From Escherichia coli (GTDB lineage Bacteria; Pseudomonadota; Gammaproteobacteria; Enterobacterales; Enterobacteriaceae), in assembly GCF_051903065.1 (NCBI RefSeq), contig NZ_CP178438.1: DNA of 64,000 nucleotides. One strand, written 5' to 3'. Shown here in pieces: positions 11,001 to 14,664 of this stretch. Numbering within the stretch: position 1 is the stretch's first letter; each line of letters starts with the position of its first letter. A program made the position numbers.

Positions 11001-14000
11001 TGTTTCTGAACACCTGACCGTATAACAGCGCTCCTTAATTTCTTTGTTAGGGACGTCCAATGCAAGTGATGGCGGCAAACATATCCATCCACTGGATGCT
11101 TACACCTGACAGATGATGGGAATATAAATTGCCACTTAAAATCAGAAATTGCGTAAGGGTATTTTCGCGCGAGCCCTGGCGGGAGACTTGTTTTACCCTC
11201 ACCTTCGCAAAGATCCTTTTCATGAAGATCACGAACCTTTTCAATATGCAATTTAAGGGGTTCAACAAGCTTTTCAGGTAACATCGTGACTCGATCTTTA
11301 CCGCCTTTGCCACGAAATACATAGACATTCCTTGACTCAAAATCGATATCTTTAACTCTTAGCATTAATAGTTCTGCTTTCCTTAGACCACAACCATATA
11401 AAAGCGAAAACATCAGTTTATAGCTACCGGATAGCTGATTGATGATACTCATTGCTTCGTTATGAGATAAGACGGATGGAACCCGTTTAGGTGCGCGTGC
11501 TTTTATCGTATCAGGTAGTAAAGTAAGTTCTCTCTGAAGTATATGTTTATACATGAAGACGATAGCGCAAAGCGCCAAGTTTTGAGTAGACGCCGTAACT
11601 TGTCGGTTTACGGCTAAATATGTCAAAAAATTAGTTACCTCTTGTTCCCCCATGTTCTTAGGATGCTGTTTTTTGTTAAACAAAATGAAGCGTTTTATCC
11701 AAAGTAAATAGGTTTTTTCAGTCTGAATTGAGTAATGCTTGGTTCGCATAACCTGTCTGATGCTTTCAAGGAAAGGTGAACGAGTCATGTAAGCTCCTTT
11801 GTTGATTATCGAGTGTGTTACTGAGACTTCTCAGTAACACCTGATGATAAGGAGGCTAAATCAAGATAAGGCATTGATATTAATAATATTACCCCATTAT
11901 GGGGTGGAGACATTACTGAGAAGTCAGTAATGTCGTAAATTAAAAGTAAATTAAGTCCTTAACTAGCTTCTTAAGTTATTGATCTTCAGTAAACTCATAG
12001 GTATAAATTTGTTTTGCCTTTCGGATGTTACTGAGAGGTCTACATAATAACTGTTAACCTCTGAGGAAGAATTGTGAAACTATCACTAATGGTAGCTATA
12101 TCGAAGAATGGAGTTATCGGGAATGGCCCTGATATTCCATGGAGTGCCAAAGGTGAACAGCTCCTGTTTAAAGCTATTACCTATAACCAATGGCTGTTGG
12201 TTGGACGCAAGACTTTTGAATCAATGGGAGCATTACCCAACCGAAAGTATGCGGTCGTAACACGTTCAAGTTTTACATCTGACAATGAGAACGTATTGAT
12301 CTTTCCATCAATTAAAGATGCTTTAACCAACCTAAAGAAAATAACGGATCATGTCATTGTTTCAGGTGGTGGGGAGATATACAAAAGCCTGATCGATCAA
12401 GTAGATACACTACATATATCTACAATAGACATCGAGCCGGAAGGTGATGTTTACTTTCCTGAAATCCCCAGCAATTTTAGGCCAGTTTTTACCCAAGACT
12501 TCGCCTCTAACATAAATTATAGTTACCAAATCTGGCAAAAGGGTTAACAAGTGGCAGCAACGGATTCGCAAACCTGTCACGCCTTTTGTACCAAAAGCCG
12601 CGCCAGGTTTGCGATCCGCTGTGCCAGGCGTTAAATTGCACAAGGAAGTCATGCGTATAATCCTGCCCATTCTATTAATTATTTCAAGTTTGCCAGCTTC
12701 AGCAATTGTTGTTCGTCACGATGTTACTGACAAAAAATATAATGCTGACGCTACGGATTTTGCACCTTTGGCAACACTTTATGTTGATGGGGCTCATGGC
12801 TCATTAATTAAGCCAGATTGGATTGTAACTGCCGCTCACGCAACTTTCTGCATAAGTCCTGGCAGTTACCTCCGCTTAAATAATGGCTATCACAAAGTTG
12901 AAAGCGTTTTCGTTCATAAAGACTATCAACCCAGTAAAAGTCACGACATCGCTTTAATAAAATTAGTAAATCCAATAAATGATGTAAAACCGGCTAATCT
13001 TTACGAACAAACGAATGAGCTCGCAAAAATAACTTGGTTTATCGGTGTCGGCGGTACTGGAAATGGGCTGACCGGACAAATTGTCGATAACTATGAAAAT
13101 GGTGGGGTTTTACGAAAAGCTCAGAATCAAATCGAACAAGCAGAAGGGCCGCTATTAAAATTTAAATTTGATAGAGATGATGTAGCTTTGCCATTAGAGG
13201 GGGTTTCAGGTAGTGGTGATAGTGGCGGCCCGGCATATTCCACCATTGACGGGACGCATTACTTACTTGGTATTAGCTCAAGAGTTGAAGGTGGGGATAT
13301 CGGGGAATACGGTGTCATGGAAGTGTATTCTAGAGTCTCATTTTTTACGTCTTGGATTGAAAAAATCACTGCAGGTGAAGAAGCTTTGCAGCAGCAATTG
13401 GCATTTCCCAAATTGCAGCGCCTTCCTGCAGGACTCACCGAACAGATTTTACCCCAAGTCTGTGCTGTTATTAGCTTGAAACCAAATGCAGTTTAACAAG
13501 TTTCTTAATTTTGTTCTGGCAATAAACCAGAGCTTATTTTCAGTGAGGTCTTCACTGAATTGGCGCTACCATTTTAAATAGAACATAGGAACTTCTAAAT
13601 GAAATGCATATTTTTGATTTTACTGGTTATAGCCTTTTCAGCTAACGCAATAATCATCAGGCATGATACGTCAGACGAAGATTATCAAAAGTTAGCAAAA
13701 AGCGATAATTCTACTGTTACTTTCTATGGTGTCTATAAAGGCGAAGATATTGTTGCGGGAACCGGAAGTATCATCGCCGACAAATGGATTGTTACTGCTG
13801 CGCACGTTGCTAATTACTTAACTAAAGGTGGCAAAGTTCAATTTAAGGATGCTTTTTATACAATTGAAAAAATTGTAAAGCATCCACTTTGGAAAGATCA
13901 GCAACTACCTAATGATATAGCTCTTGTTAAATTATCTTCTGCTATTGAAAACGCGACAATTGCTAAGTTGAATGACTTACCAAACGAAGCTGGCAAAATT

Positions 14001-14664
14001 GCAACTTTCGTCGGGCGTGGTGATCATGGGAATGGTGTTACTGGAGTTGTCGGTGCGGATAAACAGTTAAGAGCGGCAAACAATGTGGTGACTGTAGCAA
14101 AAGAACAGTGGGTGCAGTTTGCATTTGACGAGGGAGAGAAAGCCTTGACATTGGAAGGAATAAGTGGCCCCGGAGATTCTGGCGGGCCTGCATATATTAC
14201 CCATGCTAATTCAGTTTGTATTATTGGTGTAAGCTCGTGGCAAAATGCCGAATCAACCGGTTGGCAAGAAGGTAAGTACGGCGTTATTGAAAATTATTCA
14301 CGTATTTCACACTTCAGAAATTGGATTGAACAAACTATGTTGCAAGATTCACAGAAATCTCCTGAAGTCTGTTCTGATATTGTGTTGTAACCAAATACAA
14401 TTTAACAAGTTGCTTAATTTCGTTCCGGCCACAAACGGCGTGGCCTCGAATAGACTGCCTACGCTGCGCTGCGGCAGCCAATTAGCAAAGCGTTAGCAGG
14501 CATTCGGGGTTTTAGGGGTCTGACGCTCAGTGGAACGAAAACTCACGTTAAGGGATTTTGGTCATGAGATTATCAAAAAGGATCTTCACCTAGATCCTTT
14601 TAAATTAAAAATGAAGTTTTAAATCAATCTAAAGTATATATGAGTAAACTTGGTCTGACAGTTA

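What the first reader, a model, noticed from the sequence alone, without database searches (positions are those of the whole stretch)
12651..14390. Two paralogous secreted trypsin-like serine proteases occupy the cassette positions after dfrA1
Where a Tn7-type class 2 integron usually carries sat2-aadA1, this array has two tandem genes for signal-peptide-bearing S1-family proteases. Both have an apparently complete catalytic triad (WIVTAAH.., DIAL.KL, GDSGGPAY) and a mature N-terminus I-V/I-V/I-R-H-D directly after the predicted signal-peptidase site, like the IVGG start of active trypsins. They are clearly diverged paralogues of each other. I do not recognise them as a described resistance or cassette gene family; exported proteases as mobile integron cargo could act in virulence, competition or envelope or phage-related functions. 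This is the best candidate for an undescribed system in the window.
Basis: partly seen in the sequence, partly recalled or inferred. Interest (0 to 1): 0.75.

Follow-up and report, generated by a model that had tools for sequence, protein, structure and literature searches.

The report
Two secreted proteases as integron cargo
Behind the trimethoprim-resistance gene of a mobile integron sit two intact genes for exported trypsin-fold proteases; they come from marine bacteria, travel as one fused gene cassette, have never been studied experimentally, and are most likely hitch-hiking cargo rather than a new system.

Summary
Window 12651-13496 and 13599-14390 encode two paralogous (37% identical) Sec-exported S1A (chymotrypsin-fold) serine peptidases. 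Both have an invariant His/Asp/Ser triad and confident models (pLDDT about 96).

The interpretation needs three corrections.
- The integron is not class 2. Its integrase is intact (319 aa) and is IntI9/"IntIPac", the integrase of SXT/R391 ICEs. Here it sits in a Tn7-like transposon at attTn7(glmS) whose tns genes are only about 69% identical to Tn7.
- The two genes are one fused cassette (12631-14492). Only the terminal attC is intact; the attC after the first gene is a remnant.
- This is a pair of ordinary-looking secreted proteases, not a "system". The family is large and uncharacterised (651 representatives at E<=1e-30), mostly from Shewanella, Pseudoalteromonas, Arsukibacterium and other marine relatives, where members are common cassettes of chromosomal integrons.

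Three further results:
- A signal-peptidase site directly precedes a nearly invariant I-x-x-R-H-D N-terminus.
- The A-then-B pair is conserved down to about 65-70% identity, including outside integrons.
- Relatives are repeatedly adjacent or fused to TonB_C-domain proteins.

The same array is present at 99.9-100% identity in seven complete E. coli genomes and one Proteus genome. RefSeq already names both proteins generically. Interest is modest.

The parts
10829..11788 (-). Integron integrase, intact, 319 aa: IntI9 (also called IntIPac; the 'class 4' resistance integron of SXT/R391 ICEs). It is not IntI2.
   Evidence: TIGR02249 integron integrase, 420.8 bits against a cut-off of 265. The exact protein is named IntIPac in UniProt and is 99% identical to V. 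cholerae O1 partial sequences. The published primer inti9-Sh95R matches 11582-11600 exactly. The same protein lies next to traF/traH/traG in ICEs.
12074..12547 (+). dfrA1 trimethoprim-resistance cassette gene, first cassette of the array
   Evidence: Annotated dfrA1 at 100% identity in matching records.
12543..12636 (+). attC of dfrA1. The crossover point is G12630|T12631 within GTTAAAT.
   Evidence: The bottom strand folds into a long imperfect hairpin, -36.3 kcal/mol, z = -7.7. Homology with the unrelated array L004 begins exactly at GCGTTAAAT.
12631..14492 (+). One fused two-gene cassette carrying protease A and protease B
   Evidence: The block is 93% identical to a metagenomic array (L004), and the homology starts and stops at the two core sites while the flanks differ. 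The same unit, at 81%, sits in a third array next to a decayed integrase (L021).
12651..13496 (+). Protease A, 281 aa. The signal peptide is encoded by 12651-12704 (MRIILPILLIISSLPASA). The mature protein starts IVVRHD. Catalytic codons: His63 12837-12839, Asp99 12945-12947, Ser191 13221-13223.
   Evidence: Pfam Trypsin E 8e-16. The triad columns are invariant in 89 sequences. AF2 model of the mature protein: pLDDT 95.6, pTM 0.92. Foldseek PDB top hits are enteropeptidase, TMPRSS2 and kallikrein, TM 0.63-0.72. dN/dS 0.14-0.24 against relatives. RefSeq WP_063100059.1.
13491..13598 (+). Remnant of protease A's own attC. The 5' half is kept (GTTTAAC AAG TTTCTTAATT). The 3' L'/R' half has decayed and there is no GTTRRRY. 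It also carries the ribosome-binding region of B.
   Evidence: No attC-type fold (z = -1.7). The remnant is conserved in L004 and L021. The Shewanella A homologue in L006 has a complete attC of its own. An 86-nt repeat links the 3' ends of A and B plus the attC 5' halves.
13599..14390 (+). Protease B, 263 aa. The signal peptide is encoded by 13599-13649 (MKCIFLILLVIAFSANA). The mature protein starts IIIRHD. Catalytic codons: His69 13803-13805, Asp106 13914-13916, Ser194 14178-14180.
   Evidence: Pfam Trypsin E 1.1e-17. The triad columns are invariant in 61 sequences. AF2 pLDDT 95.7, pTM 0.92. Foldseek PDB top hits are kallikrein, FXIa, elastase and thrombin, TM 0.67-0.74. dN/dS 0.23-0.48. RefSeq WP_063100058.1.
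14400..14498 (+). Functional-looking attC closing the A-B cassette. R'' TTTAAC, L'' TTGCT[T]AATT ... L' AATTAGCAA, R' GTTAGC. Crossover at G14492|T14493.
   Evidence: The bottom strand folds into R and L stems with one extrahelical base. It is 94.8% identical to a stretch of a Pseudoalteromonas rhizosphaerae plasmid. Homology with L004 ends at GCGTTA.
14515..19464 (.). Tn3-family transposon (blaTEM-1, tnpR, tnpA) inserted 22 bp beyond the A-B cassette, with a 5-bp target duplication TTTTA (14510-14514 and 19465-19469). It is secondary and absent from the ancestral array.
   Evidence: The inverted repeats and the duplication can be read. Five of the seven complete E. coli genomes with the array (H53-H57), and the Proteus mirabilis H110 record, match up to base 3720 of 3721, that is, up to the Tn3 junction, so they lack this insertion; this was inspected for H54. 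The two 100% matches, H51 and H52, share the junction.
19754..20116 (+). 120-aa hypothetical protein, probably the third cassette of the ancestral array. An attC-like sequence follows it in the uninterrupted copy.
   Evidence: WP_306804508.1 follows protease B in the uninterrupted elements. Only a weak PHROG hit to a helix-hairpin-helix-like stretch.
20859..28562 (-). tnsE, tnsD, tnsC, tnsB and tnsA of the Tn7-like transposon that carries the integron. It is inserted downstream of glmS (28720-30549).
   Evidence: RefSeq names and Pfam families in identical elements. About 69% nucleotide identity to the canonical Tn7 genes on plasmids.

Best explanation
The two genes encode Sec-exported, single-domain S1A (chymotrypsin-fold) serine endopeptidases.

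Inferred mechanism:
- Signal peptidase I cuts after A-S-A / A-N-A and exposes an N-terminal Ile (I-V-V-R-H-D / I-I-I-R-H-D).
- By analogy with Ile16 of trypsins, this Ile is expected to pair with the invariant Asp next to the catalytic Ser. The enzymes would then become active on export, without a propeptide.
- Residue 189 aligns to Val (A) and Ile (B), not Asp. Specificity is therefore probably for hydrophobic or small side chains, not Arg/Lys.

Origin: the A-then-B pair is an old two-gene module of Shewanella and related marine Alteromonadales-type bacteria. The form seen here arose when two neighbouring cassettes of a chromosomal integron fused through decay of the first attC. The mobile IntI9 integron then captured the fused cassette behind dfrA1, inside a Tn7-like transposon.

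Role in E. coli, Proteus and Providencia: the pair is most likely co-transcribed from the integron promoter and delivered to the periplasm. Its spread is most simply explained by hitch-hiking with dfrA1 (and here blaTEM-1), not by selection for proteolysis.

Shown: gene integrity, fold, triad, leader peptide, cassette boundaries, origin and distribution. Inferred: activation mode, specificity, localisation, lack of selected function in the current hosts.
For: - Fold and active site: Pfam Trypsin. Invariant His, Asp, Asp-Ser and oxyanion-loop glycines in 89- and 61-sequence alignments. AF2 pLDDT 95.6 and 95.7. Foldseek hits to S1A enzymes, TM 0.63-0.74.
- Export and N-terminus: hydrophobic leaders with A-x-A. 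I, R, H and D of the motif are conserved at 90% or more. 126 of 137 distant representatives have RHD within the first 90 residues, typically starting at residue 19-26.
- Residue 189: phmmer alignment to TMPRSS2.
- Purifying selection: dN/dS 0.14-0.48.
- Cassette anatomy.
- Single-gene cassette relatives in Shewanella and in metagenomic arrays.
- Pair conserved in L004, L021 and three Shewanella chromosomes.
- Closest genomic relatives are marine: Pseudoalteromonas MAG 90%, Arsukibacterium 82-85%, Shewanella about 70%.
- The same IntI9 protein carries quite different arrays in ICEs and in other Tn7-like copies, so the platform is actively exchanging cassettes.
- The array is 99.9-100% identical in 7 of 5426 complete E. 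coli genomes and in Proteus mirabilis H110. The exact proteins are on about 100 contigs.
Against: - No enzymatic, localisation or expression data exist.
- The family lacks the canonical S1A disulfides, so stability and activation may differ.
- Conservation of the A-B order across about 30% sequence divergence, and the recurrent TonB_C neighbours and fusions in relatives, hint at a more specific job than bulk proteolysis.
- 'Hitch-hiking' is an argument from parsimony. The copies are too recent (99.9-100% identical) to show either selection or decay in the new hosts.
- From my own knowledge, E. coli makes ecotin, a periplasmic pan-inhibitor of chymotrypsin-fold proteases. It may mask activity there.
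Confidence: 0.7

Rival explanations
1. The pair is the output or trigger of an envelope signalling module. In the source organisms these proteases would act on TonB_C-domain proteins, including BlaR1-like (M56) sensors that control a BlaI-like repressor. The cassette in the window would then be an orphaned half of that system.
For: - In Shewanella jiangmenensis, a BlaI-like repressor and an M56 peptidase with a TonB_C domain lie directly upstream of A-B on the same strand.
- The same regulator pair lies 1-2.5 kb upstream in Rheinheimera and Paraglaciecola.
- Small TonB_C proteins lie directly upstream of A homologues in L008 and L009.
- TonB_C proteins of 351-356 aa lie directly downstream in Pseudoalteromonas.
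- Colwellia encodes a single 443-aa protease-TonB_C fusion, and P0159 is another fusion.
- Roughly 12 of 79 loci show such a link.
Against: - Most loci (about 85%) show no such neighbour.
- None is present in the window or in the cassette form.
- The enrichment was not tested against a proper background.
- Linkage says nothing about the direction or the substrate.
Confidence: 0.15
2. The proteases give Enterobacterales a selectable advantage, for example as a virulence or colonisation factor, by degrading host peptides, colicins or competitors' surface proteins. That advantage would explain why the cassette is kept.
For: Both genes are intact in all complete copies seen, and the array is found in human, bovine, chicken and seawater isolates on several continents. 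A review speculated that the unknown cassettes of IntI9 integrons may confer an advantage beyond trimethoprim resistance (PMC4790341).
Against: - The copies are 99.9-100% identical, so intactness is uninformative.
- Only 7 of 5426 complete E. coli genomes carry the array.
- Other copies of the same Tn7-like element and the ICE integrons lack the proteases.
- Release beyond the periplasm in E. coli would need a secretion route that is not encoded here.
Confidence: 0.1
3. They are effectors of an anti-phage defence system. Trypsin-like domains occur in Lamassu LmuA variants, type XI retron RT-protease fusions and Avs proteins.
For: Weak PADLOC domain-level hits: LmuA E 7.8e-10 (A) and 1e-4 (B); RT-Protease_XI about 2e-4; Avs1b 9e-3.
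Against: - The hits cover only the generic protease domain.
- Both proteins have cleavable signal peptides and no sensor or partner domains.
- No LmuB/C, reverse transcriptase or STAND NTPase gene is adjacent.
- PHROGs gives only marginal generic protease hits.
Confidence: 0.02
4. One or both are inactive pseudo-proteases or decaying passengers.
For: The canonical S1A disulfides are absent. The closest solved structures are only 20-26% identical.
Against: The triad, Asp194 equivalent and oxyanion loop are invariant. dN/dS is well below 1. There are no frameshifts or stops. Both models are confident.
Confidence: 0.03

Closest known systems
Peptidase family S1, subfamily S1A (chymotrypsin/trypsin fold; Pfam PF00089)
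   Same: Double beta-barrel fold, His-Asp-Ser order, GDSGGP oxyanion loop, Asp preceding the Ser, and an N-terminal Ile at the position of Ile16.
   Different: - Only 20-26% identical to any solved enzyme.
- No propeptide; the N-terminus is made by signal peptidase.
- N-terminal motif I-x-x-R-H-D instead of IVGG.
- No Cys after the catalytic His, so no Cys42-Cys58 disulfide.
- Val or Ile at position 189.
- A 20-45-residue C-terminal extension. In A it is modelled at pLDDT above 90 to about mature residue 260. In B it is shorter and its last residues are modelled with low confidence (final pLDDT block 64).
Integron gene cassettes of marine sedentary chromosomal integrons (Shewanella, Pseudoalteromonas and Arsukibacterium arrays)
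   Same: Promoterless ORFs bounded by a GTTRRRY core site and an attC. Relatives at 70-91% identity sit in long co-oriented arrays of small unrelated genes.
   Different: Here two genes share one attC (a fused cassette). The unit has moved into a mobile, clinically circulating integron.
IntI9 / IntIPac ('class 4') resistance integron of SXT/R391 ICEs (hotspot 3, dfrA1)
   Same: Identical integrase protein and the same first cassette, dfrA1 (PMC2791158, PMC3131240, PMC4790341).
   Different: It is carried by a Tn7-like transposon at attTn7 instead of an ICE. The downstream cassettes are the protease pair and a 120-aa ORF, not the cupin, HTH and DUF1801 cassettes seen in ICEs.
Tn7 with its class 2 integron (intI2*-dfrA1-sat2-aadA1)
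   Same: A tnsABCDE transposon inserted downstream of glmS, carrying an integron whose first cassette is dfrA1.
   Different: The tns genes are about 69% identical at nucleotide level. The integrase is intact IntI9, not the truncated IntI2. There is no sat2 or aadA1.
Vibrio cholerae VesA/VesB/VesC secreted trypsin-like proteases (from my own knowledge; not compared by a tool here)
   Same: Gram-negative, Sec-exported S1A enzymes of aquatic Gammaproteobacteria.
   Different: From my own knowledge, the Ves proteases have an IVGG start after a propeptide, an extra C-terminal Ig-like domain and a GlyGly-CTERM sorting signal. A and B matched no NCBIfam model at all; I did not check that the library holds a GlyGly-CTERM model, and no such tail is evident in either sequence.

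Membership tests
Peptidase S1A (chymotrypsin fold) | Significant match to the family profile (Pfam PF00089) | tested here: met
   A E 8e-16, B E 1.1e-17.
Peptidase S1A (chymotrypsin fold) | Catalytic triad in the order His, Asp, Ser, with the GDSGG oxyanion loop | tested here: met
   Invariant columns H45/D81/D172-S173 (mature A numbering) and H52/D89/D176-S177 (mature B) in 89- and 61-sequence alignments. They align to H57/D102/S195 of TMPRSS2.
Peptidase S1A (chymotrypsin fold) | Two six-stranded beta-barrels superimposable on solved S1A enzymes | tested here: met
   AF2 pLDDT 95.6 and 95.7. Foldseek E about 1e-14, TM 0.63-0.74 to enteropeptidase, TMPRSS2, kallikrein, FXIa and elastase.
Peptidase S1A (chymotrypsin fold) | Activation by a new N-terminal Ile/Val that salt-bridges Asp194 | tested here: inconclusive
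   Ile directly after the A-x-A site is conserved at 90% or more, and the Asp194 equivalent is invariant. The contact itself could not be inspected because no coordinates are available, and the cleavage site is only predicted.
Peptidase S1A (chymotrypsin fold) | Conserved disulfides (Cys42-Cys58, Cys168-Cys182, Cys191-Cys220) | tested here: not met
   A reads TAAHA and B reads TAAHV. Mature A and B each have only two Cys, at other positions. Only 17 of 137 family representatives have TAAHC. This feature is typical of S1A enzymes but does not define the family.
Peptidase S1A (chymotrypsin fold) | Serine-dependent peptidase activity | not testable with these tools
   Needs biochemistry.
Integron gene cassette | Unit starts at the G|TTRRRY crossover of the preceding site and ends with its own attC (R''-L''...L'-R', imperfect hairpin with an extrahelical base) | tested here: met
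   This holds for the A-B unit as a whole: boundaries G12630|T12631 and G14492|T14493, and the terminal attC folds canonically. It does not hold for gene A alone, whose attC is a remnant.
Integron gene cassette | The same unit occurs in different arrays with different neighbours | tested here: met
   Window (after dfrA1), L004 (after a 3-demethylubiquinone methyltransferase-like gene) and L021 (after an EcsC-like gene). Homology breaks at the core sites.
Integron gene cassette | Excision and insertion by an integron integrase | not testable with these tools
   Needs a recombination assay with IntI9.
Class 2 integron of Tn7 | intI2 (normally with an internal stop codon) and the attI2 platform | tested here: not met
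   The integrase is an uninterrupted 319-aa ORF identical to IntI9/IntIPac.
Class 2 integron of Tn7 | Carried by Tn7 itself | tested here: not met
   The tnsABCDE genes are about 69% identical at nucleotide level to the Tn7 copies on plasmids.
Anti-phage defence protease effectors (Lamassu LmuA-protease, retron XI, Avs) | Cytoplasmic protease domain fused or adjacent to the system's sensor or partner genes | tested here: not met
   Only domain-level PADLOC hits. Signal peptides are present, and no partner genes lie in the window or in related elements.

The most novel reading that the evidence does not exclude
The conserved A-then-B pair is a dedicated two-protease module that works on TonB_C-domain envelope proteins, for example by triggering BlaR1-like/BlaI-like regulators. 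It would be a kind of extracytoplasmic proteolytic signalling or envelope-remodelling system that has not been described, and a mobile integron would have moved its protease half into Enterobacterales.
Probability: 0.12. Interest if true: 0.65.

Novelty: new member of a known kind. Interest (0 to 1): 0.33.

Why it matters
This is a clear, datable example of a non-resistance cassette leaving a marine chromosomal integron and entering clinical and veterinary Enterobacterales on a mobile platform (an IntI9 integron in a Tn7-like transposon).

It also shows that the IntI9 integron is not confined to SXT/R391 ICEs.

It points to a large, untouched clade of propeptide-less S1A proteases with a diagnostic I-x-x-R-H-D N-terminus, which would be easy to test biochemically.

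If the proteases are active in the periplasm of E. coli, they could affect envelope proteins, fitness or host interaction. Nothing yet shows that they do.

Tried and rejected
- Class 2 integron / Tn7: rejected. The integrase is IntI9 and the tns genes are only about 69% identical to Tn7.
- SXT/R391 ICE as the carrier: considered because of IntI9, then rejected for this window. The element is flanked by tnsEDCBA-glmS on one side and lpf/pst on the other. The ICE arrays carry no proteases.
- Two independent cassettes: rejected. The middle attC is a remnant.
- Longer TTG start at 12609 for protease A: rejected. It lies inside the dfrA1 attC, while all homologues start at MRI... and a Shine-Dalgarno sequence precedes ATG 12651.
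- Defence system: rejected.
- Curated family names: NCBIfam gave none. PDB sequence and fold searches gave only distant eukaryotic S1A enzymes. AFDB50 gave only unnamed relatives.
- Promoter and terminator scan of 11600-14600: not above chance.
- Literature: ten searches found no paper on these proteins or on this Tn7-like/IntI9 element. Terms covered intI9, IntIPac, protein and record accessions, Tn7-like plus dfrA1 plus protease, integron plus trypsin-like, and BlaR1/TonB. The library lacks most subscription journals, including the original SXT-integron paper as I recall it (Hochhut et al. 2001), so absence is not proof.
- The dN/dS value for B against Shewanella ANA-3 was discarded because my coordinates put it out of frame.
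Full report
**1. What is there**

The window is a stretch of E. coli chromosome. It matches strain 23CRST027 at 100% and six other complete E. coli genomes and Proteus mirabilis H110 at 99.9-100%.

Between the pst/lpf genes and glmS lies a Tn7-like transposon. Its parts, in window coordinates, are:
- tnsE-tnsA at 20859-28562, with glmS at 28720-30549;
- an IS3-family element at 9408-10483;
- an integron integrase gene at 10829-11788 (minus strand);
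- dfrA1 at 12074-12547;
- two ORFs at 12651-13496 (A, 281 aa) and 13599-14390 (B, 263 aa);
- a Tn3-family transposon carrying blaTEM-1 at 14515-19464, flanked by a 5-bp TTTTA duplication;
- a 120-aa ORF at 19754-20116.

Five of the seven E. coli matches (H53-H57) and the Proteus record stop one base short of the Tn3 junction. In the copy I inspected without Tn3 (H54), the 120-aa ORF follows B directly.

**2.

- Both A and B match Pfam Trypsin, with E 8e-16 and 1.1e-17.
- They are 37% identical to each other, E 3e-49.
- In an 89-sequence alignment built around A and a 61-sequence alignment built around B, several columns are invariant: the catalytic His, the Asp, the Asp-Ser of GDSGG and several glycines of the oxyanion loop. 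Both window proteins are in those alignments.
- phmmer aligns these residues with H57, D102 and S195 of TMPRSS2.
- AlphaFold2 models of the mature proteins are confident: pLDDT 95.6 and 95.7, pTM 0.92.
- The models superimpose on solved S1A enzymes (enteropeptidase, TMPRSS2, plasma kallikrein, factor XIa, elastase, thrombin) with TM 0.63-0.74 at 17-26% identity.
- Each precursor starts with a basic residue, a hydrophobic core and A-S-A or A-N-A. This is followed immediately by I-V-V-R-H-D (A) or I-I-I-R-H-D (B).

**3. The N-terminal motif marks the family**

- In the alignments, I1, R4, H5 and D6 of the mature proteins are conserved at 90% or more.
- Among 137 distant representatives from the exhaustive search, 126 have RHD within the first 90 residues. 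The motif usually starts at residue 19-26.
- The Ile lies 44 residues (A) and 51 residues (B) before the catalytic His. This compares with 41 residues between Ile16 and His57 of chymotrypsin, a figure from my own knowledge.
- It remains an inference. I could not inspect the Ile-Asp contact in the models, and the cleavage site is only predicted.
- Aligned position 189 is Val in A and Ile in B. 'Trypsin-like' therefore describes the fold, probably not the specificity.
- The usual S1A disulfides are absent.

**4. The integron is not class 2**

- The integrase is an uninterrupted 319-aa integron integrase (TIGR02249, 420.8 bits).
- The exact protein is named IntIPac in UniProt. It clusters with V. 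cholerae O1 sequences at 99%.
- A published primer for intI9 matches it exactly (PMC6541609).
- The identical protein lies beside traF-traH-traG, hotspot 3 of SXT/R391 ICEs. The literature places the 'class 4' or intI9 integron with dfrA1 there (PMC2791158, PMC3131240, PMC4790341).
- Those ICE arrays carry other cassettes (cupin, HTH, DUF1801, small ORFs) and no protease.
- The same integrase also sits in Tn7-like elements. Some carry dfrA1-A-B-orf120. One carries a quite different array without dfrA1 (L015).
- The tns genes here are only about 69% identical at nucleotide level to the Tn7 genes found on plasmids.
- So the platform is an IntI9 integron in a relative of Tn7. Its layout parallels Tn7 and its class 2 integron, but it is a different element.

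**5. Cassette anatomy**

- I aligned window 12540-14520 with a metagenomic contig, L004, which is 93% identical. Homology begins exactly at GCG|TTAAAT and ends at AAAGCG|TTA; the flanks are unrelated.
- A third array, L021, is 81% identical and lies next to a decayed integrase. It holds the same unit with the same ends.
- The terminal attC (14400-14498) folds on the bottom strand into the canonical paired R and L boxes with one extrahelical base.
- The spacer between A and B keeps only the 5' half of an attC (GTTTAAC-AAG-TTTCTTAATT). It has no GTTRRRY and does not fold like an attC. The remnant is conserved in L004 and L021.
- In Shewanella CP020472.1, by contrast, the 70% homologue of A is a single-gene cassette with a complete attC of its own. 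That cassette starts with the same GTTAAATTGCA...ATG leader.
- A and B therefore travel as one fused cassette, 12631-14492.

**6. Origin and family**

- Word-indexed searches found hundreds of relatives of each protein. Named ones are almost all from Shewanella, Pseudoalteromonas, Thalassotalea, Alteromonas, Colwellia and Bowmanella.
- A scan of one genome per species gave the closest relatives of A: a Pseudoalteromonas MAG at 90%, Arsukibacterium at 78-85%, and Shewanella and Bowmanella at about 70%. Relatives at 35-40% occur in Stenotrophomonas, Xanthomonas, Acidobacteriota and Gemmatimonadota.
- An exhaustive profile search counted 651 representatives (50% clusters) at E<=1e-30 and 7128 at E<=1e-10.
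- Several of the closer relatives of A sit in long co-oriented runs of small unrelated genes, the signature of chromosomal integron arrays.
- The nearest integrase relatives (up to 91%) come from Alishewanella, Rheinheimera and Aliiglaciecola.
- dN/dS between the window genes and their relatives is 0.14-0.24 for A and 0.23-0.48 for B.
- No curated family (NCBIfam) matches, and the top AFDB50 neighbours are all uncharacterised. Ten literature searches found nothing on these proteins or on this element.

**7. Two leads beyond the finding**

First, the A-then-B order is conserved in the two other cassette copies (91/90% and 81/81%). It is also conserved in three Shewanella chromosomes (S. jiangmenensis, ANA-3, PS-2; 70-71% for A, 64-72% for B), where no attC flanks the genes. 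Closer relatives of A also occur alone. The pair is therefore old and may be functionally coupled.

Second, relatives are repeatedly linked to TonB_C-domain proteins:
- a BlaI-like repressor plus an M56/BlaR1-like protein with a TonB_C domain, directly upstream of A-B in S. jiangmenensis;
- the same regulator pair nearby in Rheinheimera and Paraglaciecola;
- small TonB_C proteins directly upstream of A homologues in two metagenomic arrays;
- TonB_C proteins of about 355 aa directly downstream in Pseudoalteromonas;
- single-chain protease-TonB_C fusions in Colwellia.

About 12 of 79 loci show one. I did not test this against a background, and no such partner is present in the window.

**8. Most likely function and rivals**

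The best-supported reading is two exported, propeptide-less S1A endopeptidases from marine bacteria. They were captured as a fused cassette and are now carried along with dfrA1, and here also blaTEM-1, in Enterobacterales.

In E. coli they should reach the periplasm. Nothing encoded here would take them further. From my own knowledge, E. coli's periplasmic ecotin inhibits many chymotrypsin-fold enzymes and might blunt them.

- Signalling role tied to TonB_C/BlaR1-like proteins: possible for the source organisms, about 0.15.
- Selected virulence or competition role in the new hosts: possible but unsupported, about 0.1.
- Defence-system role: effectively excluded. PADLOC gives only generic domain hits, both proteins have signal peptides, and there are no partner genes.
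- Pseudo-enzymes: excluded as far as sequence can tell.

**9. Verdict**

These are new, uncharacterised members of a known enzyme family, carried as a known kind of mobile unit. The unusual points are the route (marine chromosomal integron, then IntI9 mobile integron in a Tn7-like transposon, then E. coli and Proteus), the fused cassette, the diagnostic I-x-x-R-H-D N-terminus and the TonB_C linkage.

Interest is modest at 0.33. It would be higher only if the pair proves to be a dedicated module acting on TonB_C-domain proteins.

Noticed in passing
window 10829-11788 and 20859-28562; loci L011, L013, L015, L018: The IntI9/IntIPac integron, described in the literature I found only in SXT/R391 ICEs, also sits in a Tn7-like transposon (tns genes about 69% identical to Tn7) at attTn7. 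Different copies carry different cassette arrays; L015 has a GFA-domain gene and a 169-aa ORF and no dfrA1. I found no paper on this element.
   Followed up: partly
L022/L027 4430-7795; L038; L079; L008/L009; L034, L035, L041; L075, L088: Relatives of the two proteases are repeatedly adjacent to, or fused with, TonB_C (PF03544) domain proteins. In three genomes they are close to a BlaI-like repressor plus an M56/BlaR1-like TonB_C protein. About 12 of 79 loci show such a link. No partner is present in the window.
   Followed up: partly
window 13447-13532 and 14356-14441; L004 2148-2233 and 3057-3142: The last 45 nt or so of genes A and B, plus the first 40 nt or so of the attC sequence after each, are about 85% identical at DNA level, although the proteins are only 37% identical overall. 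B's stop codon corresponds to a sense codon in A, and A runs on to stop inside the R'' box. This suggests past recombination or gene conversion between the two cassette ends. It is unexplained.
   Followed up: partly
window 14515-19464: A complete Tn3-family transposon (blaTEM-1, tnpR, tnpA) with a 5-bp TTTTA target duplication is inserted 22 bp after the protease cassette. It splits the leader of the next cassette (orf120). In E. coli 23CRST027 the same insertion has been further rearranged by IS26 and carries sul3, qacL, aadA1 and estX.
   Followed up: partly
window 19754-20116; L003 18000-18560: The 120-aa ORF after the proteases (WP_306804508.1) has a weak helix-hairpin-helix-like hit to a phage DNA polymerase PHROG. 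In the uninterrupted copy it is followed by an attC-like sequence (CTTAACAAGG...GGCGTTCTGC), so it is probably a third cassette. Its function is unknown.
   Followed up: no
window 9408-10483: An IS3-family element with a programmed frameshift lies between the integrase gene and the lpf fimbrial operon. It is present in all copies of the element examined, so it is probably part of the transposon's left arm.
   Followed up: no
NZ_OL790812.1 (L001): The PLSDB record labelled 'Proteus mirabilis strain H110 plasmid unnamed' is 4.09 Mb long and is evidently a chromosome misfiled as a plasmid.
   Followed up: no
L016 (CP135084.1, 3.1-Mb genome) 5881-9960: The identical IntI9 protein also occurs in a small-genome bacterium, next to cassettes that include a peptidase M1-like gene and a PycTM-domain gene. 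The PycTM domain belongs to the effector of Pycsar anti-phage systems. This may be close to the natural source of the integron platform.
   Followed up: no
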